In this document: piece after piece, positions 1 to 39,769 of the stretch | Position numbering within the stretch: the first letter of the stretch is position 1 | Layout: each line of letters begins with the position of its first letter | Origin: Lama guanicoe | Taxonomy: Eukaryota | Length of the DNA: 64,000 nucleotides | Assembly (NCBI GenBank): GCA_013239625.1 | Contig: MU057036.1 | Location: 14,978,655-15,042,654, forward strand | Reading direction: 5' to 3' | Position numbers and translations under genes: made by a program | Notes under the pieces: model-generated | Databases searched by the model: none | The model's input: the letters and a program-made list of their open reading frames with translations, nothing else | Told to the model about the DNA's origin: nothing

Positions 1-2346
1 TGGGTTGTTCAGGCCTCATCCTGTCTCTCCATGTCCTGTCTGTGCTCATACCACATCCACCTTGCTGACCACTGGTATCTCTGTCTACCAGGGGTTGGAC
101 AAAAATGAAGAGAGGGTGTAAAACCCAACTTTAGCAGGTTGGTGTTGTGGCATAATAGAAAGAAGAAAAGTCAGTGAGTCTACGGGGACCATCCCATTCC
201 AGCTTTGCTAGCTTTTCTTGGGCAAGTTGCTCACCCTCCTCTTCAGAAGGAAACAGTTGATACTGACATGACATCAAAGCTCCCACCCATCATATGATCA
301 CCAAGGGCAGAGCATAAGAAATATCACACAAACTTAGATTATTTTTTAGGTGCTGTGGATTGCATTTAGTTGTGTTTAGTATCTCCCAAATTTAAAGGTA
401 GTGTGTTTAAGTCTTGGCATATATACTAATATAAGTGAGTAGACAGAGATAAAAGAAATTGAGGCCAAGGAGAAATTAACCTTGGGGCAAAGGAAAAGGA
501 CTTTGATTTAAAAAAAAAAAAAAAAGAACAGATGTCCTGTGGGAGCAGAGAGCTCCTGCCATATCCTTATGCAGATACATGGCCTTCCAGCAGGCTGGGT
601 GAGAGTGGAGCTGGGGAACATTTGATTGGTAAAGACTTTGGATACATAAACCCATGATATGATTCATTGTCTCCAACTGAGTACAAAGCGGAATGGAAGT
701 TCTGCAGAACAAATCTCCTGGAATCCACCTGGGTGGGAAGAGCACAGGACAAGGAGGCTAGAGACCCATGTTCCTTCTCTGGCTCTGTGGCTAACCAGCT
801 GGGTGACCACACTTAATCTGGCTAAACTCTGGGCCACAGTTTAATCACCCATGCAGTGAATTGTTTGGACTCTACTCCTACAAGCGTGGAAAACCTGTGA
901 TCATGCTCAGAGAGCCCTAGAAATCTCAAAGATGCTTTTCTTTGCCAGGAGCCAAAAGTGTGAGAAATTACAGCAGCTCAACCAGGAAACAACCCCCTCC
1001 CCCAACATGCACCTATGTACACATATTGTTTATCTGGGAAAGGTTGAGGCCACGCCCTATTGGATATGTATCCTCACTCCTGATCTGAAGCAACTACTTA
1101 TGAACCATAGGTGATGAGATCCCACCTGGTTATAAGCATAATTCTGACTGATTAGCCTTGGCAGTACCCAAAGAGTTTTCTGGATTTTTTTAAAGAGACA
1201 GAGCACAGTAATTCCTCAGACTATTAGGGTGGAGGTGGTTGTGTGTATGTGTGTGAAGGCCAAGTGAGAAACCTCACCAGCTGCTTCCATCAGTGGTGAA
1301 ATAGTTGTCATCTAGGATGATCTGGTTAAGAGCAGGAAAAGGCAACAGTGCCATTCAGGATAGGAAAACCAGTGGCTAAAGAAAACTACCCAGGATAATT
1401 GGGTTTATTAATCTATCTGACTTTAAATCATCTTTCCTCCACCATTTTTATAGTCTCTAAGTCTACAAATTGTTTTGAAACTCAGCCCCTCCTCCTCTGC
1501 CTCTGTCCCAAGGCTGCTGCATGATAAATAGCCCTACCTTCTCTCCCCAACCCTTCCTACATTCCTCTCCAGCCATGTCAATTCCTTCCTGAGACTAGGG
1601 TGGGAGTCTACTCAACAGTCTCTACTTGCCTGGACCTTGTGTCTAACTTCGGAAAGAACTGGTTTTAGAGAACACTCAGGGAGGGAGTGATTCCTACAGA
1701 CATACCTTTCTCAGACCAGATGTCCCCTGGAGGCAGTCCTAGCTGGACATTGAACCCTGATAACGTTTGAATGAAAGTGTAGAGGCTGTAAAGCAAAGCA
1801 AGTCCACTTTCCATATTAAGTCCTGCTGCTTCTCGGCTTTGCTGAGTCCTCTGGCCCCCAGGTTAGCTACAGTGAACATAAGAACAACCTTCCTAGCAGT
1901 TTCTGTGTTCTGGTGACAGCCTGTCCCACTGACCTCCCTGGTCAGGAGAGCATCCTTCTCTTCTGTTGGGGCTCTTACAACCAAATGTATGGCTCTTTTA
2001 TTAAGTTGCCAGGTCCTGAAAGTGAGGGAGGAAAGAAGTGGCCTGCTTTGCCTACAGTTTCAGTTTAGGAAACAGGGAAGTGGAAGAATTTATCCACGGT
2101 CCTTCTCTGCTAAAAGACTGCAAAATTCTTCAGCCACCATTGAGAAGAAACCTCCCTACTTCAAGGCTAGATTTCTGGTACCCTAAGGCTAGAAGGGATT
2201 TCTAGATCATGAAAACATCTATTGATACGGAAGGTGGCCTGGGGAGAGAGAGTAAATAACAGGCCCAAAAGATTACACATTGCAGAGCTAGTCTGGAGAA
2301 CCCCACAGAAGGCGGCTGGATCACCAATTTCCCTAGATCTCACCCC

Positions 2347-2416
2347 ACACACACACACTCACTCACTCACTCACTCACTCACTCACACTCTCCTCTCTCT
2401 CAGTCTCTTTCTCTCC
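2347..2416. repeat. Compound microsatellite (CA)n-(CTCA)n-(CT)-rich
   Basis: Directly visible: cacacacacacactcactcactcactcactcactcactcacactctcctctctct. Confidence 0.95.
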
Positions 2417-2451
2417 TTGATCATCTTCAAAAGGGACCTTCTTCGGTGGGC
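2387..2451 (-). other. Candidate spliced exon (65 nt) of an unidentified minus-strand transcript
   Basis: Minus strand reads tttactgttttttttccag|GCCCACC...GAGGAGAGT|gtgagt: strong polypyrimidine acceptor, purine-rich body, GTGAGT donor. Motif-based only. Confidence 0.35.
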
Positions 2452-3509
2452 CTGGAAAAAAAACAGTAAATCTCTCAGAGAGATAAAGAAGATTGGCAAC
2501 CTTGTGTCAGCTTCCCTTTCTTTCTTTCAAGATACTCAGTATTTCACTTTGCCCAGGAAATAGAGAAGAAGAAAAGAGAATCAGATGTTGTTATAAAGAA
2601 AACAAAGCAAATAAAGAAATCTGCTTTTTAAGGAAAAGTGCTTGCTTGTATGTGTGTGTGTGTCTGTGTGTCCAGGGCCATGTATTTTTTGGAGTAAGCT
2701 ATATAAAAATGTAAGCGGCCTTTTCATTAAGTGAAACACAGAGAACAAGGCCTTCTTAACCTGTCCCAGTCCTTAAAAACCTTAAAAATCAGTGTGAAGA
2801 TAAGTGATTCACTCTGCCTCAGATCCCGGGGCTCTGCTCTGCCCTCTATCCTGCAGAATATTCTCTATTCTGTTTCCTTTAGGCTTCTTTTGGCGTATCT
2901 CTCTTCCATTATTAGTCATTCTAATAAACACTTCTAATAAACACAAATCCAGGATGCTGCTTTTGGGCTCTTGTGCTGCCTTTATCAAAGGCTGATACCT
3001 GCATTAACTTTGTCATCTGTCTTGAAGAAACCCAGCTGAGGTCCTTAACATATTCTGTTGCAAGCCGTGATATAATGGACGTATTTCGTGTACATTCTCA
3101 TGTTAAATGGAATCTGCATCCCTAAGCGAACTAAAAATGCTTAATTATTAATAAGTCCCCGAGGGATTGGTGACATTTGGGATGATTTTATCATGCTGCA
3201 GATATTTAACGACATAATGTGTATGGTGGTAGTCTTTCGTTTAAAAGAACGTTCCTTCCCAATTCGTTTTGACTTCTGTGCCATGGGGATTAGTCCCTGA
3301 ATATCCAGCCCCAGGTGGAGGCAGAGGGGAGTCCTGAGGAATGGGGTGGGATTGAAGCTGGGGCAGTGCAGGGAAGACCAGGAAAAGGCCCCAAGGAGCT
3401 GCCTCCTGGGAGTTGGAATTGGTTTGGGGTAGACTGCAAATGAGGTGCTTCTGTTCACGTAGAGGCAGTGGTGGCAATAGATGGAAGTTTCTGGAAAGTC
3501 TAGGGATCA

Positions 3510-3920
3510 CAGGACTAAGTTCCAGGTTTACGTGTCACACCAATTTGCTGTGTGACTCTGAGCAAATTACTTAACCTTTCAGAGACAGAGTTTTCCCATA
3601 TATTTAGCAAGAATAATTACATACCTCTTAGCTACCATATTGAATTGTGTGCAGTATATATGAAAGTATTTCCAACAGTTAAAGCACTTTATAAGAAATA
3701 TATTTGAAGATGGTGAAGAAGGAAAAAGCATTTACTAAGCACCCTCTATGTACTAGGGATTGTGTTCGAAACTTTTACAAACATGAAGCCATTTAATCTT
3801 AGTGAAAAAATCTGAGATAGGCCTGATTACCCCACTGACAGAGAAGAAATTTGAGGCTCAGAGATGTTGCCTAAGGTCACAAAGCTAGTGAGTGGTGGAG
3901 CCTGCTGGAAAACCTAGAGA
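3510..3920. mobile_element. Two MIR SINE fragments in opposite orientation
   Basis: MIR core motifs tgtgtgactctgagcaaattacttaacctttc (+) and gaagaaatttgaggctcagaga...cctaaggtcacaaagctagtgagtgg (-). Confidence 0.8.
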
Positions 3921-4910
3921 TAAGGTATGAAAGTACACAATATGTAAAAGGAAAATGGGTCACAACTGCAATTTTTAAGTAGAAATGTTGTCAACCTAAG
4001 CATTTAGTTGACTTATACACGATGATATGCATTATCACAACGTATGAACATTCACATGAAAATTTCATTATTTTGTCATCAGCTTATTTCTCTGCACAGT
4101 CTGATATTAAGGAAGGAAAATCTCTAAGTATAGTGTCAAAATAGGTTATTAAAGAAAGTAAACATTTAGGTTTATATGATCTTGATCTGTTAGCAGTTGA
4201 TGGACTGATCACAGGGGGCTTTCCTCTCATCACTTCCTTGTTTCTGGCACATCACTGTGAGTTTTCACCTCCAGTGGTAACACTCGTCTCTCCTCCATTT
4301 CTGCTCAGGCCCTGGGCTCTGCGTAGGATGGAGATCCCATTTGCACTCAAATGCTGTGGGTCCTGGTTTTCAGTGTTTGGCCTGGAGATAAAGTTATTGG
4401 CTGTTTATGAAAGAGACACGGTGGAGCAGGGTTAGGAGCAAGAGACCAGAAGCCAGTCCCTCACCTGCTCCCTCAGTGACCTCGCTTCACCTCTTCATGC
4501 TTCATTTTCTCCATCTGTTGGTGAAAGAGTGATACACGATACGTGGCTCTCAGAGTGTCAGAAACATCTTTGTAAAGCACTGGGATATGCTAGAAGGGGC
4601 CTGAAAGACTTCATGCTTCCCTTTACGTGGTAAAATAAAACCCCATCCGATGGGTGAAAAATTACAGAACGTATATTTTTTAAATGAGAAGACGATCTTA
4701 CACCTGAAAAAGGCCTTGCATGTCTTTATCAGTGGCTGCTGTACCATGAACCTCAGGTCAAAGGTAGGACCTAAATTGTTTAAATAATAAACGAATAAGC
4801 CTAAGCATGTACAAGATGCACATGTGGCTGCTGTCATTCATACTAGTTTACTCTCCTACTACAAAATGGATTTCTATTACTTTTAACATTCTCTGAGTGC
4901 TTGTTCTCAC

Positions 4911-4924
4911 CGTGCACGCACGCG

Positions 4925-4971
<47 letters not shown>
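4911..4971. repeat. (CG)6(CA)19 alternating purine-pyrimidine microsatellite
   Basis: cgtgcacgca(cg)6(ca)19 seen directly. Confidence 0.95.
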
Positions 4972-4974
<3 letters not shown>

Positions 4975-5135
4975 CCCTCATGGTAGATTAGCAGCAAGAT
5001 GGGATCATCACCCCTATTTTATAGATGAGAAAACTCAAACCAGGAGAAGTAAATGGATTGCCAAGTCCACACGGATAATTAAGGACAGAGTTAGGAAAAT
5101 AATCTGTCTCCTGTCTCAAAATCTGGTGCTTAATC
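4975..5135 (-). mobile_element. MIR SINE
   Basis: ccctattttatagatgagaaaactcaaaccaggagaagtaaatggattgccaagtccacac matches the MIR core in antisense. Confidence 0.75.
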
Positions 5136-5216
5136 CTCTCGACTTCATTTTTTTATAATCCTGAAGACCAAACTTTTTTCTCTTTCTGTTCTTGTACATC
5201 TTTGTTCTCCACTTAC

Positions 5217-5308
5217 CGACAGGACAGGGCTGTCGGTGCCTTCTTCCACTCCTCCTCTGGGAACGGAGCCCTCTAAAGCAACACATCCCTGATGTCCTCG
5301 AGCAAGGT
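5217..5308 (-). other. Candidate spliced exon (92 nt) of an unidentified minus-strand transcript
   Basis: Minus strand ctttcactttaccgcag|ACCTTGC...CCTGTCG|gtaagt; CpG-retaining non-repeat sequence. Confidence 0.45.
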
Positions 5309-6599
5309 CTGCGGTAAAGTGAAAGCTCAGACATGACTGTTCGCTTGTTAAGCTTGTTCCTCATTGCAAGCCCCAAGAAAAACCTGCCCCAAATCACATT
5401 ACCCAGGCTCTGGGATCTCCCAGCTGCTCTAAGTGGAAGAGCCAGTCGAGCTGCACAAGTTATATTCAGGCTGTAATAGCTGCGTCGTGATGCTCTCACA
5501 GACAAGCATTTGCTTTGTATGTGCTTCTAAAGTGTACCCAGGCTTACGCACCAGAAGGACGAGCGTGGGTTGAGCACCAAAGAGCAGTTTAAACTGATAT
5601 TCTTTTCCCTTCCTGTGGGGAATTAAATTGCAAAGATTATCAGAGACTGATGAAGAAACAGAAAAGCCGCAGCTGATGAGGCACTAACCCCATTTTTAAC
5701 ACACATTCAAGAGTGACTAGTACTCTGCATGCTCCTTGCCAATCCAGGTAGCTTCAAAATTCCTTCCAAGGATGAACCTTCCCGCCCCCATCCCCATGCC
5801 CAGTATCACTCTGCAAAAAAGTTCTACTGAGATTTTTAACCAGGGAGACAAAGGAGGCTGCAAAGGGGAACCCCAGCATGATGGATAGACGGCTGGCCTG
5901 CTGCTGCTGCTGCCCAAGGTCTGGCGGGTGAAGCTCAGATGGAGAGGATGGGCCCTCTCGAAGATGCTTCTGTCTTCCCCACTTTAGCTGCTACTGCCAG
6001 GGCCAGCATCCCTGAGAAGTTGCCCTGTAAAATGAGCAGCTACTTTTCAATAGCTGGCTCCCAGCTGCTCCCCACCTCTGTGGCTGCTGTTGACCCGACA
6101 GAGCCAGCCTGGCTCGGCTCTCCATGCTGAAGACCTATTGGGAGCCCAAGCTGGAAGGCACAGGTGAGCAGAAGCAATGTGGGTAGTCTGGGTGGCATGC
6201 CTGCCCCACCTGCAGAGTCTCCTCCAGCTTTGGGTTGATGGGGTGAGAAATTTGAGGGTTGGGTGTTCTTCCCAAACATCTCAGTCTCTCTTCCTTTTCC
6301 TGTATAGCCCGCACCCCTTCACCCACCCTAAAGCCCTGCCTGGAAACAGAACACTGCAGCTGGCCCTGCCCCCAGGAGCCAGAAGGGCCAGGTCTGGCTC
6401 GGAGCCAGGCTCTGAAGAACCGACAGAGGGCAGAGAGAGGCGATGGGTGGGGCATGCGTTACACATTCAAAGCCTAATTTTGGATCAGTCATACTTGTAG
6501 CCAAGCCTTAAAGATCACTGAGGCCCCAAGATGAACCCACAGCTCGGAGGGGGGTCCTGGGTGAATCCTCAGCTCTCTTGCCCACACACTGCTCTCCTT

Positions 6600-7900
6600 A
6601 GTTAGAGCAGCTCAGTCAGGCTTGTTTGGATTTTCACTGGTGGTTTTTTTAAAGCAACATCAATTGTCTCTCTGGCGCTAGCTGAGGGCAGGGTGCATGT
6701 CCCACACTCATCTCGCTGTCCACGATCACAAGACTGCCCCCGCTGAGATGCTGACCGGAAGCCGGGGTCTCATGCCCCTGCCCCCCAGCTTAGGCCTAGG
6801 ACATGCCATCCTGCTTTGAGGTGGCACCAGCACAGACAATAGGCCAGCAGGGAGAGGGCAGCCACAGGTGATGGAGCGGGCGCCTTCCTCTGAACAGTAA
6901 AAATGACCCTCTCTGACATGAAAGAGAGAAGAGACAGCTGGCCTCTGGGAGCTACTGGAGCAAGAAGGGAGGGCTGCTCTCGCTTCTTCCAAGGGTGTGG
7001 GCACTTCCTTCGGAGGATTGGCGGCTGCCAAGAGCAGGCTGTTGCCTCCCTGGAACTCCGGGTATCAGGATGCTTGTTTGCAGAGCTGGCCGGCCNNNNN
7101 NNNNNNNNNNNNNNNNNNNNNNNNNNNNNNNNNNNNNNNNNNNNNNNNNNNNNNNNNNNNNNNNNNNNNNNNNNNNNNNNNNNNNNNNNNNNNNNNNNNN
7201 NNNNNNNNNNNNNNNNNNNNNNNNNNNNNNNNNNNNNNNNNNNNNNNNNNNNNNNNNNNNGAAGACAGCAGAAAGAAAGGGCACAAGCTGCTCCCACCGC
7301 TCCCTGGGCTGAATACGGAGAAACCCGTGTCTGCACACCAAGGACCCCAGCTCTTGTTCCCAGACTTAGAACCAAAGTCTGTGCCCCTGAACAGCCTTCT
7401 GACTTTTTTTTCCAAAGCTGTACCTGCTGAACGCTGGATTTCAAGAAGTGTGCCGGGCTGACATATTGAATAGCACTCCTCAGCTGTTTAATCTAAATTG
7501 ACTGCATCTTTGTAGCAGCTGGCCACAGGGAAAAACAAAAGAATTCATGATGAAAAAGGCAAATCTCTCCTGACTAGCAAGTGCTGCAGCCAGAGCAGCC
7601 GCTGTTAAACATTTCGGTACCATGCTTAATGCCGTGCCCAGATGCGGACATCGGGGGGGGGGAGGAAAAACAGCAACTTTACAGAAGTGAAATGTGGGTT
7701 AATTTACAAGTTTTTTTTTTTCTCCCGGAAGGAGAAAAACTTATTAATGCCTGGTTCTTTATACTTTCCAAGATTTCTCTGGTGTTTCCTAATTAGAAGG
7801 TAGATGGGAAATGAACCTAAGGGAGCAAGTGGGGAAAAGGAGCGGGGGGGACTGTCTTCCTGCTGCTGTTTGGCGCCCGCAGCCTCACACCAGCAGGGAT
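6600..7900. promoter_or_regulatory. GC-richer, CpG-retaining, repeat-free segment around N gap 7096-7260; possible promoter/enhancer
   Basis: Elevated GC and CpG relative to flanks; gap is entered through ggccggcc; no repeat motifs recognised. Confidence 0.35.
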
Positions 7901-8160
7901 CTCCCCTCACACTTTCAGAGGCTCCCATAGGTTTCTCCCATTTCTCGGCATTTCCTTCCTGCCTTCCATCAGGAGGTTGCCTGCAGCATTCACAGGGCTT
8001 GGAGTCCCCCAACAAAGTATTCAAAATCCTGTGTTTTTGCCAGCTCAGGGAACAATTTCAAGGCTCATATCAGACCAGCCCAGTGGACAGGCCTGAGATT
8101 CCCGTGGCCTCGTGATGACCCCTTTCCACTTGTACAACTCCTGATTTATGTCGCTTTAAA

Positions 8161-8345
8161 GGGGCGGGTGACTTACCTGGTATAAGGCACCCTTGATGTA
8201 TAAAAGTAACAGCCATGCACCATGACATGTGATTGGCTTGGGCTGGTCAATGAGGAGGCAATTTCATTATCTTTCCCCCTTGTCCATTGCTTCGCACATG
8301 GTTACTTGACATGCTATCCATCAGGAGGCGTGAATGCAGGTAAGT
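8161..8345. promoter_or_regulatory. Candidate (bidirectional) promoter flanked by two outward-facing consensus 5' splice sites
   Basis: GGGGCGGG 8161-8168, TATAAAAG 8199-8206, ATTGG (CCAAT on -) 8232-8236; CAG|GTAAGT on - (8179-8171) and on + (8337-8345). Confidence 0.45.
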
Positions 8346-8614
8346 GCCAGCCTGTGTGTGGGCATGGCAGCCTTGTTCCTGAGTGATTAATGGAAATGCA
8401 TGATGACACTGTTCTCTTTGGGACTGATTGCTAGAATCTCCTTATTGCCTGGGTGGAGATATTATGGCGACAGGTCAGAAGGATTTTTCCAGTAGGATCC
8501 AAGTGGGCATTATTTTTAATTCCGTTTCCTCTTTTTCTTCCACATCAGATTTTACATTTTCTAAACACACACAGACACACAGACATATACATACTGTTAA
8601 TTCTTAGAGCCATG

Positions 8615-8812
8615 AGTGCACATACAGTAGCCACTAGCCATTTATGACAATTTAAATTAATTAAAATGAAGTAAAATTGAAAATTCAGTTCTTCAGTCAT
8701 TCTGAGAATATTTCAAGTGCTCTGCAGCCACATGAGGCTGGGGGCTACTGTACTGGACAACACAGAGTTACCGAACATTTCCATCACTGCAGAAAGTTCT
8801 ATCAGACAGCCT
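8615..8812 (-). mobile_element. hAT-Charlie MITE, MER3/MER33-like
   Basis: gtagccactagcca...aaaattcagttcttcagtc...atttcaagtgctc...gccacatg...aacatttccatcactgcagaaagttctat is the MER3 motif set in antisense. Confidence 0.85.
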
Positions 8813-10452
8813 ATCCTAGAGTATCTATTTGCTCTTATATCTCAAGACTCTCATCCCTTTCACAATCCTTTACCATTAGTTTTTATGAAGGTGACAATTA
8901 TTTTTTTCTTTAACGACAACTTAAATCAAACTAATTAGCTCCTTTTAGGCTCTTAAGGGAAAGTTCCCCAGCTGCTGGGCTGGTAAAACCTTCTCAAATA
9001 GTTGAACAGGGTGTGGCGTCACAGACATTGAAAGGACCTAAAGTCCACAGGATTTTAGTCTCAGGCAGTCTTGACCCTAACCTATTCCTGTAGATAATTT
9101 TCCTAGACAGTCCTTAATCATCATAGGAGAAGCTACTGCAAGGCTAAGTGGTGAGTCAAGAAAGATACCAGGGTATCTCCATAAAAATTTGCACAATAAC
9201 TAGAGAGTAATAAATCCTTTAGAACTACAAGGTAGACCACACTGCAAGTTCCTGCAGCTAGGCTTTGAAGTTAGGCAGAGATGCACAGAGCAATGAAGCA
9301 CTTTGATGCAGCTGGAAGCACCTTCAAAGCTTCTGGGGGAGAGATTAGACAGCTACCTGTAACCGATTGTTCAGGTCTTTGTGTGTGTGTTGGTGGAGGC
9401 GGGGCCTGGACCACACAAAAATTAAACAAACCGCAAGCTACGCTGGAAGCACTGTCCCAAAACTACCTACAACCACAGGAAGGATATTGAACACTTTTGC
9501 TGGAAACTTAAAAATTCCACTCAGAACTTTTATTTACTTCTTTTATTTTCTGATTTAGAACAGAATCTCACTGGCAACTGGTATATCCTCTTGACCTTAA
9601 AATTTTGACATTTCAAATCCTTTTTTTGAAAAATTTCCAAACCTGCTTTATTCTCATCTTTAACTGGCATGATACACTTTGTATCTTATCAACAAGTTAG
9701 ACAGCCTGAATGCAAACTATATTCTGAGCCTCCTCCAATTTAATTTAAGATGAAAGTGTCCACAGTACAGGCTCCATGACCGTGTTATTACACGCAGATT
9801 CTTAGGGACTTTCATTTGGCTGCATTGTGGTGAGGGTATGGGTGGGTGACGGCACATTCCTGGAAGCAGATGAACAGGATATTACCCAAGTCGCTTCTTA
9901 GTCCAAGCTACTCTGTCACAAAGCAGCTGTTAGGTGTCACAGCCACAAACCTGGGCTACCCACTGGCCTGATTTTCCCACTTCTCTCAAGGAATAAATGT
10001 AGACCTGGCCTTGTTCGAAAGTAAAAGCTGAAACAGAGAGGGAGAATAGGAAAGAGACAAGACTCGTCAATCCAGCTTGGGAAGTTTCAGAGGATAGGAG
10101 TTAGAAATGTTTCTGAATTCGAGATCCTGGCCCTTTCTTTCCAACGCCAGTAGGGAATGTGGGTGGGACTAGGGGAAAGGAGTCCTGCTGAAGTTTCGGG
10201 AAGATCCTGTGGGGGCGGTCTCCTGATCAGGGAGGCAGGGAGACAGTGTGACAAAAGCTGCCAGCCTGGATACCAATAAGACCTAGTCCCTTTTCAGCCT
10301 TATCCCATGCCAGGGGGCAGACCCCGTCTTGGAGGGAATCAGCTCCAGGCCTAAGCAGCACCTCTGACAGGGTGGTTTGGCCCCTTTCAGAGTTGCTGAG
10401 CCTCCTGTGGCAGCGACACATCTGGGGCTACAACTTTCTTACTCGCTCTCTC

Positions 10453-10630
10453 TTTTTTTTAAATTTAAGTCTAGTTGATTTATAAAGTTGTGTTAGTTTC
10501 TAGTATACAGCATACTGATTCAGTTATACATACATACATATATATACACTCTTTCATTATAGGCCATTACAAGCTCTTTGTGCTGTGGAGTAGGACCTTG
10601 CTGTTATCTATTTTGTATATAATAGTATCT
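10453..10630 (-). mobile_element. Short 5'-truncated young L1 3'UTR (cetartiodactyl/camelid type)
   Basis: T-run then gttgtgttagtttctagtatacagcatactgattcagttataca...taggaccttgctgttatctatttt, homologous to the 18494 copy. Confidence 0.8.
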
Positions 10631-12299
10631 GGCTCTTCTTACCCTAGAGGCCTCCTCATTCAAGCTGGGAATCAGGCTGGGGGAGGGGGAAGCTGGAAGA
10701 TGTCTTCCAGCCCGTTGCTGGTGGAAGCAGCCCCACTGTTTCACTCAGAGATCAACAAATGGCACCTTGGTCCTCGGTGAACAAATCCTCTGGAAGTGGA
10801 GCTCCTTCATAATGAAGCTGGCTGTTTTCTTCTTTCAGTCTTCATAAATCATGTGCGCCAGTGCTGGCATGACTCATGTGGCTCGGCAGCAAAGCTCCTG
10901 CTCAGCCACACAGCTGCACGGGACAAAAATACCTCAGTGAATAAAGCGTGTTTGTCCTGCAGGATTTGGGGTATAAATACGAAATCAGCAAATATGTTGG
11001 GGTTCCCCAGCCTCGCGTTTCTGACTCTCATAACCCCTTGGCTGCCTCCTCTGTCCCTTCAGCTGCCCCATGTCAGCCTCTTTCCCCACTTCCTTGCTTT
11101 TGTCAAGGAAGAAAAAGGTCTGATCAGGGTCACTGTCATCTACGGATTGTCTGATTCCTTGATGAGAGGAACTTTTGTCTCAGTGACTTGAGGTCAATGC
11201 GGAACCTCAACCAAGCAAGTATACTCAGTCTTTTCATTCTAATGGAATAATGAAAGACGTCCCCCTTGTGAAAGGACTTGCAAATGGATGGGGGTGACCT
11301 GGGATGCAGTGAAATCACGGACATGTAACCCCAACACTGAGCTTGCACTTGGTGTGCTTGGGGGCCCCTGTGGGATCAGAAGTGCCTTCTGTCTCTCCTC
11401 TGTGGGTAGTCTGTGTCCTTGCAGAGACTTGTCCAGGCCAAGCTCAGTTCCAGCCCCTCCAGACCTGGTCTGGGGCTGCTGGAGTGACCAAATCAGGTGG
11501 AGTCCATTCTCCTACAGTCCAGGCCACTCCCGCAGGCTTCTTTAAACCTTTTCTCTGGCCAGTGCAGATTCGCCCTGAGGGTCCCACCCCCTCTTAATCT
11601 CCTCTCTATCTCAGAACTTCCAGAATCTTGCTTTCAGGCAACCTACTTATATTCTTTTGGTTAATACTTACTAATTTTTCACCATCCCCACTTCTTCTCT
11701 GTCCTCTTTGGATGGGTCCTGATGATTTCTGTGTTGCCGCTTCATTGGATAATGAAGTTTCTGACACTGAAGTGTGCTGTTGGAAGGCATTTTGCCTCAT
11801 TAATGGAGGTATTACTGTAAATGTGGGTCACTTAATATCTGTTAGGTGACATATCTCATTTACCTTCAGACTAGGGTATTGTTTAATATGTATTTAGGGC
11901 TTTGGCTTTAAGAGATGTATTTTTTTAATTAAACACATATTTTGAGTCCTGACATCTGACATGTTTTGCCTATATATAAAGTGTTTATATAATTTGCCTA
12001 TCTAAGTTCAGTGAAGTATAAAGTACACTAATGAACGATAGTAAATCACTCCACACATATAAACCTCTGTTTATTTGTGGCTGGACCAGAAACAGCCTAA
12101 AACTTTTCTAACATTCTAAGCACTATTGCTTTCGGATATGCTTACCCCAATATGCAGGATAAATCCTTGGCTTTAGGACAGATTTCCAGCCACATTGCTG
12201 CTTTGGGGGCTTTAGATGTGGAAAAACCAGGAGAAAGGTGGGAAACAGGACGTTCTCAGTGATCATCCTTTCTCTTTGAACGACCCACTGACTTACTCA

Positions 12300-12530
12300 G
12301 GGAGGCATCACCTGATGTGGGGAGAGAGAATGGACTTCAATGTAAAAGGGAACTGGATTTGAATCTATTAGCTTGTGACCTTGAATGAGTTGCTTAACCT
12401 TTCTAAGCCTCACTTTTCTCAGCTTTAAAAAAGTGGATGCTGATACATGTTTCCTGGGTAGGTTGTGAGGTGAAAGCACTTAGCCAATCTCTGTCTATAA
12501 CGGGATTCAATAAATGCCAATTCTCTTTTT
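12300..12530 (+). mobile_element. MIR SINE
   Basis: tgtgaccttgaatgagttgcttaacctttctaagcctcacttttctcagctttaaaa. Confidence 0.8.
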
Positions 12531-12949
12531 ATTCCGATCTTAGCATAGATATCTCTATTAGATAAACCGTTTTTAGCAGATAATATGAGGAAGTATTTTT
12601 GTCCTGCCCCCACCACCATGAAGGTGATTAAGCTAAATCATCAATTACGATGTGCATCTAGAAAGTGACATTCGTTTCACACTGTGGATATCACAGCAGC
12701 AAGCCACTGCCCCAAGACTCATTTCTCTACTTACCAGCAGTGGTCACATGGAATCAGTCCTGTGGGGAAGAGTGCCAGCCAGACTTCAGGTTGGAGCAGA
12801 CCACGTGAGGCATACACCCATCTGCTACAACCAGTTCCATTTGGGGATACGTTTGAAAGGCCATGGAGAGTTACTTGCCACCTACCCACACATCTGCCAA
12901 ATTTCTCCTCAAGTACTATCGTGAAAGGTTCATTCCTTTTGTTTAAGAG

Positions 12950-13245
12950 CTTGTCAGTAGCAAACACACAAGTCAAGCTAAGGATTTTAAGGAATGGAAA
13001 CATCTTGGCTTACGTACCTTGAAAGTTTAAGAAGATGACTGACTTTGAGTGCGTCTGGAGCACATGTCCAGCTACTAAACCAATAACTCTGGCTGGAACA
13101 GGCAGAAATTTCATTGGTTAGACTTCATAAGCCTTTCCCTGGAGCAGTCCTACCTAAACTACATGGACACAGAGTGAGTCTGGGGAGGATTGCCAAAACA
13201 AGAAGATTGGTTTCTGGGCAGACAAATGCAATAGATGTTGCCTAC
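12950..13245. mobile_element. Degraded MaLR (MLT1-like) LTR fragment
   Basis: Ends ...ttctgggcagacaaatgcaatagatgttgcctaca, typical of MLT1 termini. Confidence 0.4.
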
Positions 13246-13304
13246 AAGCGACTACAGAACAGAAACTACTGCGGGAGTGTCAACACATGATTCCAGGCCG
13301 TCAG

Positions 13305-13910
13305 CTTGTTCATCAGTCAGGGACCAGTTAGGAGATGGAAACTCCCTAGTTATTTTAACAGGGAGAATTTAATAGAAGGAATTCATAACTAGGTACAAAG
13401 TTGTTAACAAGGTAGCTAAAAGTGTTCAAAAGAAGATATTAACATACTCGGGCTGGCAGAGGGAAGGGAAGAGGGTGGGACTATTAAAATCTAGAAGCTT
13501 GGAGATGCCCTATGGACCTACAACTCACTTCTGGAGAGGGGTGATGCTTGGCTGGTATTGGTGACTAAGGATGCACAATGTGGCTGGTTCTGTAGGTTTT
13601 GAACAAACTGAATCCTGGATTCACTCACTGCTATGGGAAAGAACTGCTTCTGCCGAGTGAAGAAATGTGGCTGCGGCTGCTCGCAGCAGTGGCATTCAGA
13701 CATCAAGCCAATAGGGAGCAAATGGAAAGGAGTTAATCCCTTTTCCTCCTCCAGCATTACAGGCTCCCTCTAATGCTCACAGAGCCTAATATGGAGCTGC
13801 TGCCAAAGGAGAATCATGGTTTGCAGAATCCAAGTCCAGCATCATAAAGCCAAGAAGATAAGGGCAGGTGTGGGGCTGAGAGACTGACTTCTTAACCGGG
13901 AGTAATCACA
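13305..13910 (-). mobile_element. Ancient ERV solo LTR (LTR78/LTR41-like; subfamily uncertain)
   Basis: tcagtcagggaccagttaggagatggaaact...gagaatttaatagaaggaatt: antisense LTR end with reversed polyA signal. Confidence 0.5.
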
Positions 13911-14479
13911 CTTTAGAGTGCAATGGTTACTTCCTTCAAGATTAGCAGACAGTAAGTGTACTAGAGACATGGAAGTTTGGATGGCACTGAGTAATGCTTG
14001 GAGATATGAATCATGATCCTCTCCTACTTCAAATTTCCTTATTCCTTGGGCAGAGCAGACGTGGTGTCAGAAGGACTATAGTAACTGCGACCAGAAAACA
14101 AAGGGACGACATCCCCCAGGAAAGCATTTCATTAACTTGAGTTGTTCTTTCATGTATCCATGTGACAAGTGGGTCAAGCTTTTCCTTTTCTCTCTAGGCT
14201 GTAGGCAGTCAAGGTGTTGGTAGTTACTGAGCCATGTTGATCAAAGTTCAGCTGAAACTTTCCTGATGACTAAGCATAAACAATCTTGCCAGAGGAAGGA
14301 GCTGGTGTGTTTACACAAAATGTTTGTCCTTTTCCTAAAGTAAGATTCTCCTCTTGGTCAAAATTTTTCATTAACTCTGTCACCTGAGATTAGCTCTTGA
14401 AACCCTGACATTTCAGACAAACTGAATTTCTCTAGTTATTCCAACTATACTAGTATGACTACTTTGGTCAAAGCAAGTT

Positions 14480-14519
14480 TGTGTGTGTGTGTGTGTGCAT
14501 GCATGCATGCACGTGTATG
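14480..14519. repeat. (TG)n-(CATG)n alternating purine-pyrimidine repeat
   Basis: tgtgtgtgtgtgtgtgtgcatgcatgcatgcacgtgtatg seen directly. Confidence 0.9.
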
Positions 14520-14899
14520 ACTTAAGTCCAGGTAGAAAATACATACTCTGTGTAAGCAATAAATGTCAGAAACATCAAGTACAATTTGCTGAACTTTAGC
14601 AGAACAGTTATTAAGCTATACAACCCTTTCCTTTGCTCCAGCAAATTGTGAAGACTCAACTTTTCAAAAAAGGAGAAAAGTTGAAGAACACTATGAAACC
14701 ATGAATCCATTTTTGATTTATTGTTAGCAAAAGGCTGTCATCAAAACAAAGTTTATGCCTATTAATAAATGAGCCATAAATAACAATGGTTCCCAATACA
14801 AATACACTTCCAAGGGCAAAAAATTATGGAGAAAGGAATCTGTCCCCATAAGTGACTTTGAGCCTAATAAAAATTATAAAAATACTCTAATTTATTTCA

Positions 14900-15530
14900 A
14901 CTAAATGCTTTATAGTTTTCAAAATGCTTTCACATCTATCTCCCCATTCAGTCCTCACAGGAACTATGTGAGGTGGATAAGATTTATCATTCAATTTTAC
15001 AGATTGCAAAAACAAAAAACAATGGAGGCTCAGAGACGCTGAAGCAATTTGTTTAAGTGGTAAATTGTGGAGCTGGGTCACAAACCAGGTTTTCTAAATT
15101 GCACATTGGCCCTCTTTTTATTGCTGCTTCTTTAACTAACTCTATGGTCAGATTTCAAAAATATGTAGTAAAAATATGTGTAAAAGAAAATGATCATAGC
15201 CTAAAATTTCCTACATGTATAAAGTAGTAAGATCTATCCCATTAGATAGTACTGCATCTAACACATAACTTCCTGGTAATTGGGAAGCAAGATTTGGAAT
15301 TTGAGAAGAAGAATAGCTAACATTTATTGTTACTACTTGCGAAACTCTCTTCCTTATGCAACACCTAAAACTGCTAATACTACTGAGGTATGTATTTCTT
15401 TTAGACTCATTTTACAGATGAATAGACAGAGGCTGAGATAACTCTCCAAAGTCATTTAACCAGTAAGTTGCGGAGCAAGAATCAAATCAAGGTCTGTCTG
15501 ATCCAAAACCCACCCACTCTGGTCTCTGCT
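14900..15530 (-). mobile_element. Two MIR SINEs (~14900-15100 and ~15310-15530)
   Basis: ttttacagattg...tggaggctcagaga and cattttacagatgaatagacagaggctgaga. Confidence 0.75.
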
Positions 15531-15690
15531 CTTCCATACAAGCTCAGCTGTCCCAGTAAGAAACGCTAATCCATCCTGTTCTCCCAGACCTGCCCAAACA
15601 CAGAGTCTCTAAATAAAGAGGACGAAGCCACAGCCTAACAAACTGCTAATACAGCCTCACTTGCAAAAGACATGAATTTCAGCTTTGATT

Positions 15691-15701
15691 TGCTGAGTCA
15701 T
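15691..15701. promoter_or_regulatory. Perfect CNC-sMaf antioxidant response element (TGCTGAGTCAT)
   Basis: Exact match with A/T-rich flank (ATGACTCAGCAAAT on -); function untested. Confidence 0.45.
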
Positions 15702-17789
15702 CGTGGTTAAGACCCTCCTTCCCATCCCTCTTCTCTTAGCAGGAAATGACAATATCAGGGCTGTCTTCATGGCCATTTGCCTCTGGTTTATCTCCATGAG
15801 AGTTTGCCACCACAAGGACAGACCATGGACCAGAAAAATGGGCGTTTCCCCTTACTTTATTTCATATCCTAGAATGAGAGATGTCGGCTCGATTCCAGTT
15901 ATTACCTAATTGGCAATAGTGGATCGTATTTTTTATATTGCAGGCCTGGAAGCGGGCAACAGAATTTAATGCTGGTGTAAGTAGTAGTGTTTTTTGAAAC
16001 ATTCAGGCACAATACAACATATTTCCCAACAAATAGTTCTTGCTAGCTTTGTGTCGTGTTCAAAACGTACCAGAGGCATTAATCCATATTATGGACTTGG
16101 AGCTTTCTTTTTTCTGCTTAAAGTCTAACTTATTTTCAAATTATAAAACTTATAAGTGCCCAAAACCACAAAACTTTTTTTTGGCACTCGTAACCAAAAA
16201 AGAGCTGAATTTTGTTTTCCCTAAGATTTTTATAAGAAATTTGCTCTTAGGCTGATGCTTGTGAACTTGAGCTCTTTTTTTTTTTTTCCTGACCAACTTT
16301 TAATTTACTGAAAATTGGGGCTTATGACATGGAGAAGGCACTAACAAATCCTAATCTGGGCTAATGAGCTGGATGGGTAAATGAATGGGTGGCTACCACC
16401 AAAAGATAATAATGGCCATGAGAGTTTTTTCCCCTCTCAATTAAGTATAGATGTGATTATCTGACCATGCTGCAATATTCGTTTAGTAATTGTGCTAGAC
16501 TAACAGTCTAAATTTATTTTATGTAATAGTCTTTTTAATAACAATGTCTATTAAAGACATCTGGTGAAAGTCTGTAATGCTTATTTCATGGATAGCCAGC
16601 GNNNNNNNNNNNNNNNNNNNNNNNNNNNNNNNNNNNNNNNNNNNNNNNNNNNNNNNNNNNNNNNNNNNNNNNNNNNNNNNNNNNNNNNNNNNNNNNNNNN
16701 NNNNNNNNNNNNNNNNNNNNNNNNNNNNNNNNNATATTATGAAAGGCTTTTAAAAATATTAAAAAGTTTAACTAAACAAGAATATTAGTGTAATTTAATG
16801 TTTTACCTGCAGTTTTCAAGGCCATTCAAAACACTTCCCAATCACCAGGTTTCAAATTCATATGTTAGCCTGCCTCTCATGCTACAAGGCTTTTAAAAAT
16901 CAGAGGTTTATGACATCAGGTCAATATTTTAACCACAAGAGGAAAAGAGATCTGTATTTGCTGAATTGCTTGACTGTAGGTGAAAAAGAAAAAAATCCTG
17001 TATGCCACGGACCCTTTGCTAGGGTCTGAGATGCTAGCTGAGCCACGGGGGTGGTGGTGGAACAGACAGGCCCAGGGTCCCCGGCCCAGGCTTGGCCTGG
17101 ACAGAAGCCACCACGTTAACACCACTGCCAATTTGAAATGAATCACCCTACCCATTGGCTAGGCTTAGCATCCCTGTAATTTCATTTTAAAACCTCAATG
17201 ATCAAGATGAAAAGAAAGCAATAAAACATATCAAAGTTTTCCTCGTGCAGTTTGAAGAGCCCCCTGTTCTCCGTATCTGTGGCCTTGACACTTCTTTTGG
17301 CATTGCTATTAGTGATGCAAGGAGTAATCCACCACTGTCAGGGAACTTGGCTGTTTCATCACCTACATGAGAGACCTGCATAACTCCATGGTGACTGCTG
17401 GCTAGATGAATTATGTGGCTCCTTCGTGCACTTTTTGATTGAGCAGTGATAACCCAGGTACTGCATTATCCTGTGCCCCTCTCTGCCCTGAGAAAAACTT
17501 GCTCTTTTTTCTTACAGGGCAGTGAAAGAATGACCTCATTGAGACAGTTAAAGTGACATCACCATGCCAATCCGAACTTATTACAGTCAGGAAGAAGCAA
17601 TTGCTGGGCCAGATTAAATACAGTAAAGGAAAATATCAGTGACAGCTCTTTCAACTGTTTAGAACTGGTGATAATTGTTCATCAGGCTCTTAGAAAAGAG
17701 TAGGTGAAGCAATGCCCAAAATATAGCTGCTGAAATTTATTTTATAATCTCATATTCATACTTGCCAGGGAATCCACTGGCTTTGCCAT

Positions 17790-18180
17790 TTATCCATTCA
17801 TCCATCCATTCACCATTTATTCATTCAACATATAATGTGGCATGCTCATTAAATGCCTGAGCTAAGCACTAATAATTCAGCAGTAAGCCAAACTGATGGG
17901 TGTTGCTCTTCAAGGGTTTATTGTCTATTGGGAAGACAGAAATTAAGTATTTACAAGTGTGATGAGTATTAAGAAGGACATATGCAGGACACTTTGGAAG
18001 CATGTCATAGGAGAATCTAATCTCATCAGAGGAGACAGAAAGGCTTCCTAAAAGAAATGATGCTTAAACTGAGACCTAAAGGATGAGAGACTGGAGAGAG
18101 AGCCCCTCTGGTTGAGGAATAGCAGATGCAAAGTACCTGAGGCAGGCAGGAAATGCAGGACAACCATGAGAACCTGGAGA
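17790..18180 (-). mobile_element. L2 LINE 3' fragment
   Basis: cattcatccatccattc...tcattcaaca tail and ggcttcctaaaagaaatgatgcttaaactgagacctaaaggatgag. Confidence 0.8.
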
Positions 18181-18493
18181 TACAGTGACGTCCATGATGA
18201 GTGGGGCATGGGAGGGGGAAACTGGTACAAGATGTATCACATCCTGATGGCCCATCCTCACCCATGAACAAAAAAGGAAAAAAGAATTATGTCAATAAGA
18301 TTTTATTAGAATATGATTCTAGAGGCATGGAGAATCTTAAACATTTTTTATTATGTATATCATATATACTGAGTATGTGTAGATTATAAAATATGTATAT
18401 ATGTACTATACTGTGTCTGTGTGTATATACATATAGGTACTGCCACATGTAGTTTAAATAACTATATTCTTATATATTTTTTGAGACAATGGG

Positions 18494-19178
18494 TTTTTTT
18501 TTTATTTACAATGTTGTGTTAGTTTCTGGTATGTAGCATAGTGATTCAGTTATACATATAAATTCTTTTTCATATTCTTTTTCATTATAGATTATTACAA
18601 GATATTGAATATAGTTCCCTGTACTATACAATAGGACCTTGTTGTTTATCTATTTTATGTATAGTAGTTCGTATCTGCAAATTTTGAACTCCTAGTTTAT
18701 TCCTCCCTCCCTTCCCCTTTGGTAACCACAAGTTTGTTTTCTATGTGAGTCTCTTTCTGCTTTGTAAATAAGTTCATTTGTGTCATTTTTTTTAGATTCC
18801 ACATACAAGTGACAATATATATATTTGTCTTTCTCTGTCTAACTTACTTTACTTAGTGTGATAATCTCTGGGTCCATCCACGTTGCTGCAAATGGCATTA
18901 TTTCATTCTTTTCTATGGTTGGGTAGTATTGCATTGTGTATGTGTGTATGTATATGCCACATCTTTATTCATCTGTTGATGGACATTTAGGCTGCTTCCA
19001 TGTCTTGGCTATTGTAAATAGTGCTGCTGTTTTGGGGTGTGTGCATCTTTTTGAATTAGAGTTCTTTTCCAGGTATATGCTGTGAGCGGGATTGCTGGAC
19101 CACATGGCAACTATCTTTTCTCCCTTGTATATTATTGCCTCCTTTGTCAAAGATTAATTGACCATAGGTGTGTGGGTT
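18494..19178 (-). mobile_element. Young L1 copy A: 3'UTR plus ORF2 C-terminus with internal deletion
   Basis: ORF 18965-19150 (-) gives AALFTIAKTWKQPKCPSTDE (L1 ORF2 C-term); junction near 19110 jumps to the YGQLIFDKGG segment. Confidence 0.9.
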
Positions 19179-19179
19179 C

Positions 19180-19798
19180 TTATTACAGTGTTGTGTTAGT
19201 TTCTGGTGTACAGCAAAGTGATTCAGTTATACGTATAATTCTTTTTTATTAGAAGTTACTACAAGCTACTGAATATAGTTCCCTGTGCTATAGGTCTTCT
19301 GCCCATTTTTTGATTGGGATGTTTGTTTTTTTGTTTTTGAGTTGTGTGAGCTGTTTGTGTATTCCGGAAGTTAGGCCCTTGTCAGTCGCATCGTTTGCAA
19401 ATATTTTCTCCCAGTCAGTAGGCTGTCCTTTCATTTTGTTTATAGTTTCCTTTGCTGTGCAGAAGCTTATAAGTTTAATTAGGTCCCATTTGTTTACTTT
19501 TGCTTTTATTTCTATTGCCTTGGTAGACTGACCTAGGAAAAAAACATTGCTACGATTTGTCAGAGAATGTTTTGCCTGTGTTCTCTTCTAGGATATTTAT
19601 GGTGTCCTGTCTTATGTTTAAGTCTCTAAGCCATTTTGAGTTTATTTTTGTTTGTGGTGTGAGGGAGTGTTCTAACTTCATTGATTTACATGCTGCTGTC
19701 CAGCTTTCCCATCACCACTTGCCAAAGAGACTGTCTTTCCTCCATTGTATATTCTTGCCTCCTTTGTCAAAGATTAATTGATCATAGATGTGTGAGTT
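19180..19798 (-). mobile_element. Young L1 copy B: partial 3'UTR joined to ORF2 segment, internally deleted
   Basis: Minus strand encodes LIFDKGGKNIQWRKDSLFGKW...[13 protein letters not shown]...KKWAEDL, then jumps near 19291 into 3'UTR tatagcacagggaactatattc. Confidence 0.9.
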
Positions 19799-21049
19799 TT
19801 AATTAAACTATTCTTAAACTAATATTATTTAAAATACAATTTAAATGAAAATAAAAAATGATCATACTTTAGTACCCACCACCCAGGTTAAGAACACATC
19901 TCTGTAACTTTTAAAACACCCTTTTATACCCTCTCCAACATATTCCTTCTCCTTCATTTCTGATTGTAATTTTACTACATAAGTGCATATGTGTGCTTCC
20001 CTGAATTTTATATAAGTGCAATTATATTCTGTGTATTAAGACTTTCTTTCTTGCACGAAATATATTGTGATTCATCCATGTTGATGTGTAAACATTTCCT
20101 TTTCATGGCAGAACAGAACTTCGATTTACAGCTCAACTTCAGTGCATGGTGAGTGAGGCAAATAGTACAAAGTTTCAAAATCTATAGTTAGTTCTCAGAT
20201 TTCTTTTTATTCATTAGTATCTGTGAACTTCTTCACCCACCTTTATATGAAATAACAATGGAGCTGATAATGAGCAATAAATTTGCCAAGTAATACTTGA
20301 TATTTTCAAAAAGCTTTGTAATTTATGCCATGCAAGCATACCATTGCATTTAATCCCTCACCGCAACTGTAGGAGGTAGGCGTGCCCCAAATTTCTAGTT
20401 TGACAAGCGAGGGAATTGAGGTCTAGAGAGATAAGGTGACTTGATGAGGGGCCTTTATGTGGCAGAGAGGTACAAAATCCTGTCAGAACTGGGCAATTGG
20501 AAGTGGCTTTAACACTGCAGTTACTTATGGAGCTCCCACCTACTTCCAAGGACTGTTACACATCTGTAGCATAAGCCTTGAGACCCACAGGAGTCCCATG
20601 GCATTTGAAGGGTTTAGATTCACTACTTGAATTACTCCAAAGAGACTTGGGGACCCTTGACCTGTATTAATTTGCGTTTTAGCTCAGACACATTTGATTA
20701 AAGTGAGCCGCAAGGTTGGAAAGTAGACACCCAGATACTGTAGCTACTAAATGAACCTGGTTAACTGCTCATCATCTGAGTTTGGCAGCAGGTTCACCAT
20801 TCTCTCTCCACTCTCAAGCAAAGTTATGGGAGACGTTATACACTAACATGATATTTGCTGATGTAGGCATTTACCAAGGTCTTGGGTATCTTTCTCAAAT
20901 GCTAGGAGCCTGCTGCAGCCATCCATAACATTCTTCAAATGAAAAACACAGAATTCAATATACATATACATGTACATATAACATACGAAAAAGATTGCAA
21001 TGGACTACTCAAATATGGAAGGAATAGTATTTAGTTGGTATGATTAGAA

Positions 21050-38470: not shown

Positions 38471-39769
38471 CATTCTCTCTACATACACCTGAACAGTCCA
38501 CAGCATGCTGTGCTTCTGAAGAATGGAATGGGATTCTGGTTTTATGAAATTAAATTTGTGGCACATGAACAAACCAATCTATAAGAATATGTCTTACAGC
38601 TACTCACCCATCTGCCTTCTCTGAGTTAACGATGATTTATGATAGAGCAGCAGTAAGGAATGTTAATTGGCTTCATTTTAGTACTTGGACTTCTTGCCAG
38701 GGACTGTGGATTGATGGGAGAAAGTTTTAAGGAACACTGTAATTTTTGTTTTCCAACTGAAACCAAGCTCGACTACTCTCTCTCTCTCAGTATTTTGAAC
38801 CACAGAGTAGTGTTAGACTTTATCTTACAGAACAGCTGGTCAAACCTTTCATTTGCTAGAGAAGGTCCCGAAAGGCTGAATGATCTCCTTAAAGTCTCAT
38901 GGCCAATTAGTGACCCATGTGAAACAGAACCTGAGCTTCTGTCTCTAAATTCAGTATCAGCTCTACACACTTGCTGGGGAGCTTCTTCCTTACAGTTCTC
39001 TCAGGGTCCACATTCTGTAGTGATACTTTCAATTCACTTTTCAAGGAATCCTTTTATTCTCCTGGACTCCGCGGGGTCTGTAAATCCAGCATCCTTTCCA
39101 ACACACGCGCTGCTGATAGGTTTTCTGACAGTTCTTTCAATGCATGCATTCTTGATGGATGCATTTCATTCCCTTTCAAGGAGTCCTACTGTCCTCCTGG
39201 ATGGTTTGCAATCTTTGGTTCCATCAAGGAACATACTTCACTTATCAGGGCTAAATTTGACAGTGGCTTTGATTTGTTACTTTGCCCCCAAGTTGTAAGA
39301 GAGAGATGCTTGGCAGGATCCCAGAGTGCATTCCAGGGCCAATACTTAAAGATGGTCTCAATTGTGCAACATTTGAAAATATCGTCCTGACCTACCATTC
39401 TAGACTCCCCACTTATTCAACCATCAGTCCAATGCAGCTGCCTTGCTCCTGTTCCAGACTACAGGGAGCCCTCTGGCCTCTGAACCTCAGTGCATTTTGT
39501 GACAGTCTCCTGAACCCTGCCCTCATGGTTCTTCAGTTGAATTGTTTTTTTATTTATATGGGTAGTGAGGAAAATGGGAGGGAAACTAGGCAGTCCCCCT
39601 CTCCAGCATACAAATGGCAGACCTTTTAGGACAACAATAAGCAAGAACACCTTAGTGAGATAAACTGGTTCCAAGAACAGAGTCAACCTTGGTGAAAGTG
39701 ATTACCATACCTAAAGAAACACTGTGTCAAAGTAAAGAGGGGTTCTAACCAGTAGCTTTAACGATAACT

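What the first reader, a model, noticed from the sequence alone, without database searches (positions are those of the whole stretch)
2387..8242. Candidate unannotated minus-strand spliced gene encoding an Arg/Cys-rich small protein
Seen: three non-repeat segments with canonical splice signals (8242-8177, 5308-5217, 2451-2387). Joined by hand, the ATG at 8223 (gtcATGG, strong Kozak) stays open across both junctions: MVHGCYFYTSRVPYTR/PCSRTSGMCCFRGLRSQRRSGRRHRQPCPVG/PPKKVPFEDDQGEKETEREES. That is 68 codons, ending in phase 0 and continuing leftwards. A second frame from ATG 8228 is also open throughout (MSWCMAV...DSPVLS/AHRRRSLLKMIKERKRLRERR). Inference: a spliced microprotein (basic Cys/Arg core, acidic tail), or 5'UTR/lncRNA exons with uORFs belonging to a gene left of the window. 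I recognise neither peptide, and the unspliced ORF track cannot show this.
Basis: partly seen in the sequence, partly recalled or inferred. Interest (0 to 1): 0.7.

Follow-up and report, generated by a model that had tools for sequence, protein, structure and literature searches.

The report
Exon-like segments between MAML3 and SCOC
Three short stretches between the mammalian genes MAML3 and SCOC carry textbook splice signals and are likely exons of a weak non-coding RNA, if they are spliced at all; the small protein that can be read across them found no relative in the searches run and is likely incidental.

Summary
The three minus-strand segments have AG/GT ends at the stated places, and both ATG frames stay open when they are joined. 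The window is intergenic DNA of a 2.05-Gb mammalian genome, between a Mastermind-like gene (MAML3) and SCOC.

The microprotein reading found no support. No homologue turned up for any frame of exon 2. Neither open frame shows codon bias (a weak test). The exon-3 donor and the acidic tail lie in microsatellites. Equally strong exon-like triples occur in 42 of 92 six-kb bins, 5 of them with an open ATG frame.

Some features favour real exons. Exon 1 has the best donor of 385 exon-like segments, and exon 2 has exon-like GC contrast and purine enhancer words (thresholds set after the fact). Neither junction could be tested on RNA.

Best reading: non-coding exons (0.47), against decoy exons (0.38). 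A functional microprotein gets about 0.06. A complete 4-exon, 72-codon model exists on paper. Low interest.

The parts
8177..8242 (-). Segment 1 (66 nt). Weak acceptor (6.6 bits), consensus donor CAG|GTAAGT (12.8 bits); more like a first exon whose 5' end is unknown
   Evidence: best donor among 385 exon-like segments in 384 kb; single copy; no TATA box in the 520 nt scanned
8221..8228 (-). Two ATGs: 8228 (weak context, frame B) and 8223 (G at -3 and +4, frame A)
5217..5308 (-). Segment 2 (92 nt). Acceptor 7.1 bits, donor 8.8 bits, GC 59% against 42% in the flanks, purine-rich enhancer-like words, 4 CpG; the third frame holds one TAG
   Evidence: single copy
2387..2451 (-). Segment 3 (65 nt). 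Strong acceptor (13.2 bits); the proposed donor is the first unit of a microsatellite (6.0 bits); an alternative end at 2344 has an 8.0-bit donor
   Evidence: single copy; not covered by any of the 4 runs laid
2348..2415 (.). (TGAG)n array 2348-2386 and degenerate GA array 2358-2415: they supply the exon-3 donor and the acidic or basic tail of both frames
1934..2015 (-). Fourth exon-like segment, not in the finding. Acceptor 13.6 bits, AATAAA at 2002-1997; frame A would stop four codons in, at a stop that overlaps that AATAAA (72 codons in all)
   Evidence: 3 of 50 acceptors this strong have AATAAA within 30 nt; two contigs run through it unspliced

Best explanation
The three segments are single-copy, splice-signal-bounded pieces of intergenic DNA between MAML3 and SCOC, and they are likely exons of a low-level non-coding transcript on SCOC's strand, whose open frames are likely incidental. 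Shown: position, strand, signals and open frames. Inferred mechanism: RNA polymerase II starts at or upstream of segment 1. The consensus donor there and the purine-rich segments 2 and 3 let the spliceosome define them as exons. The RNA would end at the AATAAA just inside the acceptor at 2015, or run on past the CpG island about 6.5 kb left of the window as a far 5' leader of SCOC. Any translation from ATG 8223 or 8228 would give an unconserved peptide or act as an upstream ORF, because no join to SCOC's ATG exon is in frame.
For: Locus and strand. Segment 1 has the top donor of 385 exon-like segments; segment 2 is one of 2 of 385 with both GC contrast and enhancer-like words; segments 2, 3 and 4 rank in the top 1-4% for such words (thresholds chosen after seeing the data). 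A strong acceptor with AATAAA follows segment 3. No coding signal was found. All four joins tried to the SCOC ATG exon hit a stop. [quoted passage not shown]
Against: No junction or loose end at any splice site was seen. In the one stretch laid, 13 contig pieces from 3 runs were unspliced, exon 3 was uncovered in all 4 runs, and two contigs cross segment 4 without a joint. Those contigs look DNA-like, so this is no real test. Triples as strong occur in 42 of 92 bins and the cluster is not denser than chance. The exon-3 donor is a microsatellite unit. No TATA box or CRE lies upstream of segment 1. The splice scores come from a home-made matrix with recalled frequencies.
Confidence: 0.47

Rival explanations
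1. Decoy (pseudo-) exons: chance pairs of splice-like sites in ordinary intergenic DNA that are never joined in this order; the gene is a product of picking 3 of many candidates.
For: 4-6 exon-like segments per 10 kb on both strands, and 42 of 92 bins hold an equally strong triple. From ATG 8228 alone, 15 different two-exon continuations stay open, and 8 from ATG 8223. The donor sits in a microsatellite. A passage of PMC3098058 says decoy exons outnumber real ones by an order of magnitude. No joints were seen.
Against: Each segment is an outlier on some exon feature among 385 candidates, and this is the only triple of 1595 with two open ATG frames.
Confidence: 0.38
2. Relic of a decayed protein-coding gene read in the third frame, which both of the first reader's frames miss: a hydrophobic stretch in segment 1 and a helix-like stretch in segment 2, now broken by stops.
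For: The third frame is the only one with any codon-usage signal (4% of a GC-matched null score as high; exon 2 alone 7% against a best-of-three null). It has one TAG in segment 2 and three stops in segment 3.
Against: No intact relative: none in the 5.8-billion set at 96-2000 aa. The only hit among 1.84 billion representatives is a singleton tandem-repeat protein. The only metagenome hit is a chance match in an unrelated protein. Nothing in Pfam or the PDB and no paralogue in G000. A 30-residue query is insensitive to distant relatives.
Confidence: 0.07
3. A real, lineage-restricted small gene: four exons, ATG 8223 in a strong context, 72 codons, stop in the last exon overlapping the polyadenylation signal, giving a basic Cys/Arg peptide with an acidic tail.
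For: Open frame and Kozak context. The stop falls in a last exon beside AATAAA, which would escape nonsense-mediated decay (inference). Arg of 11 or more is reached by 2.0% and Arg+Cys of 16 or more by 1.1% of stop-free 68-codon frames of this GC content (overlapping windows, composition chosen after the fact).
Against: No homologue at 55-175 aa, no Atlas hit, and 45% of null stretches reach its codon score. It needs a microsatellite donor. An out-of-frame ATG lies 5 nt upstream. An ATG frame this long is open in 53 of 1595 chance triples.
Confidence: 0.06

Closest known systems
Intergenic spliced lncRNAs with universal alternative splicing (bioRxiv 10.1101/136275; passages read)
   Same: Short single-copy segments with canonical AG/GT in non-repetitive intergenic DNA, no coding signal, many alternative exon choices nearby.
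   Different: No transcript has been shown here; those were defined by captured reads.
Decoy or pseudo-exons (PMC3098058; passages read)
   Same: Exon-sized, splice-like ends, plentiful on both strands.
   Different: Segments 1-3 are outliers on donor strength, GC contrast or enhancer-like words.
Upstream non-coding exons of SCOC's long isoform (isoform structure recalled; exon found)
   Same: Same strand, upstream of the exon that carries the long-isoform ATG, about 79 kb from segment 3.
   Different: They lie 9-15 kb beyond the small CpG island that is probably that isoform's promoter (inference). No in-frame join exists and no junction was tested.
Protamines and transition proteins (small Arg/Cys-rich sperm proteins; features recalled)
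   Same: Short, with a basic Cys-containing middle (8 Arg and 4 Cys in the 30 codons of segment 2).
   Different: Only 16% Arg overall, an acidic tail from a microsatellite, no sequence hit, and a different locus.

Membership tests
Spliced intergenic lncRNA | A spliced transcript over 200 nt exists | tested here: inconclusive
Spliced intergenic lncRNA | No overlap with protein-coding exons | tested here: met
   Six-frame Pfam scan of window 1-12000 gave one weak hit (E 0.14, below cut-off, outside the segments); flanking genes lie about 63 kb and 79 kb away.
Spliced intergenic lncRNA | Low coding potential | tested here: met
   The codon test is weak: five real AT-rich exons also scored below zero.
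Conserved microprotein gene | ATG-initiated frame with a stop | tested here: met
   On paper only: 70-72 codons depending on the exon-3 donor.
Conserved microprotein gene | Homologous peptides in other species | tested here: not met
   Exon-2 frames A and B with flanks, 55-175 aa targets: 3 and 4 candidates, none scoring E<=10. Longer or shorter targets and the joined peptide were not searched.
Conserved microprotein gene | Purifying selection on the frame (PhyloCSF, dN/dS) | not testable with these tools
Conserved microprotein gene | Translation (Ribo-seq, mass spectrometry) | not testable with these tools
   No such data on hand.
Protamine / transition protein | Very high Arg content, about half of residues in protamine 1 (recalled) | tested here: not met
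   11 of 68 residues.
Protamine / transition protein | Sequence match to the families, and place in the protamine cluster (recalled) | tested here: not met
   No such Pfam family in any frame; flanks are MAML3 and SCOC.
Unitary pseudogene | Homology to an intact gene elsewhere | tested here: not met
   short query, so distant relatives can be missed.
SCOC 5' exons | Same strand and upstream of SCOC | tested here: met
SCOC 5' exons | Splice junction into a SCOC exon | not tested
   No RNA laid there; an in-frame fusion is excluded for the four joins tried.

The most novel reading that the evidence does not exclude
An unannotated, lineage-restricted four-exon gene between MAML3 and SCOC makes a 72-residue Cys/Arg-rich peptide. 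Its third donor and acidic tail were born from microsatellites, its stop overlaps the polyadenylation signal, and a second reading frame is open over the same exons: a de novo gene caught in the making.
Probability: 0.06. Interest if true: 0.5.

Novelty: new member of a known kind. Interest (0 to 1): 0.14.

Why it matters
On the best reading it matters little: one more weak spliced non-coding RNA, or none, in mammalian intergenic DNA, at most a far upstream leader that could tune SCOC. If the 72-codon model were expressed and translated, it would be a tidy example of a de novo gene using a microsatellite as splice donor and coding tail, easy to test by RT-PCR and comparison across related species.

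Tried and rejected
Protein searches for exon 2 in each frame found nothing scoring: third frame, frame A, frame B. Segment 1 alone had no Pfam match. The single representative hit P0003 (E 1.1e-4) was rejected: a singleton nine-fold tandem repeat whose score is summed over 7 stretches. Locus L036 was rejected: an 8-residue seed match inside an unrelated hydrophobic protein.

Rfam found nothing in window 1-20000. A PDB search of one frame of 1002-9002 found nothing. An apparent excess of exon-like segments at 1000-9000 (11, highest of 94 fixed bins) vanished with sliding windows (P=0.86). In-frame fusion to SCOC was rejected. The two changes in segment 4 of the related contigs match background and say nothing.

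My recollection that mouse 4933434I20Rik might be this gene was dropped: the abstract listed calls it a glycosyltransferase-like gene, which fits the MGAT4-family neighbour instead. Paper searches for MAML3 with SCOC, SCOC isoforms and camelid testis transcripts showed no gene between the two in the listings and passages seen; supplements were not opened and could hold lncRNA lists. Earlier findings of the scan: none.
Full report
Setting. The window is G000:C8970:14978655-15042654 in a 2.05-Gb genome. It is CpG-depleted and 27-57% GC per kb, as in a mammal; the repeat style suggests an even-toed ungulate (recalled likeness, untested). I fetched 200 kb to the left and 120 kb to the right. To the right, a plus-strand frame about 7 kb beyond the window end carries a MamL-1 domain (E 7.6e-20; PDB mastermind hit); its N-terminus is that of MAML3 by recall. 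To the left, on the minus strand, lies SCOC (PDB 4bwd, E 1.3e-25; exons mapped). Beyond it are a calreticulin-family exon and three MGAT4 exons (CLGN and MGAT4D by recall). Passages of bioRxiv 10.1101/2025.05.15.654293 place MAML3 and SCOC as neighbours at human 4q31. The finding therefore lies in the intergenic stretch, on SCOC's strand, 9-15 kb upstream of a small CpG island about 6.5 kb left of the window.

The observation. Coordinates, AG/GT ends and both open frames are as described. ATG 8223 has G at -3 and +4; ATG 8228, five bases upstream and out of frame, has a weak context. Segments 1, 2 and 3 each match only themselves in G000. Two points were missed. The proposed exon-3 donor is the first unit of a (TGAG)n array, and the last 29 nt of exon 3 lie in a degenerate GA array, so the acidic tail is translated microsatellite. 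A better donor lies at 2343; using it, or reading through, the frames stop at 70-71 codons. A masked stretch in the first proposed intron cannot be read, so an exon there can be neither seen nor excluded.

Is it more than chance? I scored splice sites with a simple weight matrix built from recalled frequencies; five real flanking exons scored 10.0-14.7 bits (acceptor) and 8.4-9.7 bits (donor), against 6.6/12.8, 7.1/8.8 and 13.2/6.0 for segments 1-3. On four real strand sets (172 kb intergenic and 110 kb MAML3 intron, both strands), exon-like segments occur 4-6 per 10 kb. 42 of 92 six-kb bins hold a triple with as high a total, and 5 of 92 hold one with an ATG frame open for 60 or more codons. 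Of 1595 triples, 53 have one such frame and 1, this one, has two. Two open frames occur in 0.8% of 210-nt stretches of this GC content. Other continuations from the same ATGs are equally open: 15 and 8 two-exon chains. The cluster of 11 exon-like loci in 8 kb looked high in fixed bins but not against a sliding-window null (P=0.86). A passage of PMC3098058 states that decoy exons outnumber real ones tenfold.

What favours real exons. Among 385 exon-like segments in 384 kb, segment 1 has the single best donor. Segment 2 is one of two with both a GC contrast of 0.16 or more and at least 9.7 purine enhancer-like words per 100 nt. Segments 2, 3 and 4 rank in the top 1-4% for such words. These thresholds were set after seeing the data. 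A fourth segment begins at a 13.6-bit acceptor at 2015, with AATAAA 13 nt inside; 3 of 50 acceptors this strong have that. Spliced from 2387, frame A would stop four codons in, at a stop overlapping that AATAAA, giving a complete 72-codon, four-exon model on paper.

Coding evidence. None was found. Exon 2 with flanks gave 3 candidates in frame A and 4 in frame B, none at E<=10, for targets of 55-175 aa. The third frame gave 2 candidates and no score at 96-2000 aa. The Atlas gave no usable hit for frames A and B, with recognition 1465 and 1352 against 2300 for most known families; the tool warns that this shows neither absence nor novelty. Six frames of window 1-12000 gave one sub-threshold Pfam hit outside the segments. 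Codon-usage scores for frames A and B are reached by 45% and 41% of GC-matched null stretches, the third frame by 4%. The test is weak, since five real AT-rich exons scored below zero. The third frame reads most like protein, but it has a TAG in segment 2 and three stops in segment 3. Its only hits were a singleton tandem-repeat protein and a seed match in an unrelated protein. Against my reading, the Arg and Cys content of frame A is in the top 1-2% of stop-free frames, though Arg is only 11 of 68. Four joins to the SCOC ATG exon all hit a stop. Exons 1 and 3 and the joined peptides were not searched against the large protein sets.

RNA evidence. Not achieved. The run search listed 19 runs, 13 holding part of 2000-7000. 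Four runs were laid on window 1-2980. Three gave 13 contig pieces, 95-100% alike and unspliced, spread over intron-like and exon-like DNA alike; the fourth (raw reads, about 1 in 100 read) gave none. There were no joints. Exon 3 was uncovered in all four, and two contigs cross both ends of segment 4. Assemblies of 500-830 million letters from RNA libraries suggest DNA or nascent RNA (inference), so this neither shows nor excludes splicing. The two junctions named in the finding were not tested.

Mechanism and verdict. The likeliest reading (0.47) is exons of a weak non-coding RNA, ending at the AATAAA near 2000 or running on as a far leader of SCOC, with incidental ORFs. Passages of bioRxiv 10.1101/136275 show that such spliced loci fill non-repetitive intergenic DNA. 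Decoy exons come close (0.38); a decayed gene in the third frame (0.07) and a true microprotein (0.06) are unlikely. A table row in PMC13370539 names a human transcript RP11-392B6.1 beside MAML3; its extent was not seen, so whether it reaches this place is open. It works like ordinary lncRNA exons, and membership is unproven because no transcript was seen. Interest 0.14.

Noticed in passing
L002:3300-4050 (about 6.5 kb left of the window): Small CpG island (GC 0.66, CpG o/e 0.64), probably the distal promoter of SCOC's long isoform (inference).
   Followed up: partly
L009:3491-3578, minus strand: 88-nt exon with strong sites that carries the ATG of SCOC's long isoform; a stop lies upstream of that ATG in the same frame.
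   Followed up: yes
window 23436-23683: A direct tandem duplication of about 123 nt, seen by eye and as two identical acceptors 123 nt apart.
   Followed up: no
window 41913-42027, minus strand: Exon-like segment with the best splice sum on the window's minus strand (21.7 bits) and one open frame, inside a 103-codon ORF; not searched.
   Followed up: no
window 38657-39298 (+) and 58742-59380 (-): The two longest stop-free frames without N in the window, 213 and 212 codons; not searched, and they look non-coding by eye.
   Followed up: no
window 4001-8000: CpG is better kept here (17-21 per kb) than in most of the window, which may mark a regulatory, germline-unmethylated stretch.
   Followed up: no
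window 8640-8830: Looks like a MER3-type DNA transposon remnant about 400 nt upstream of segment 1 (recalled likeness, untested).
   Followed up: no
window 1742-2059, minus strand: A 106-codon stop-free frame covers segment 4; frame B spliced into it and read through would reach 161 codons. No Pfam match.
   Followed up: partly
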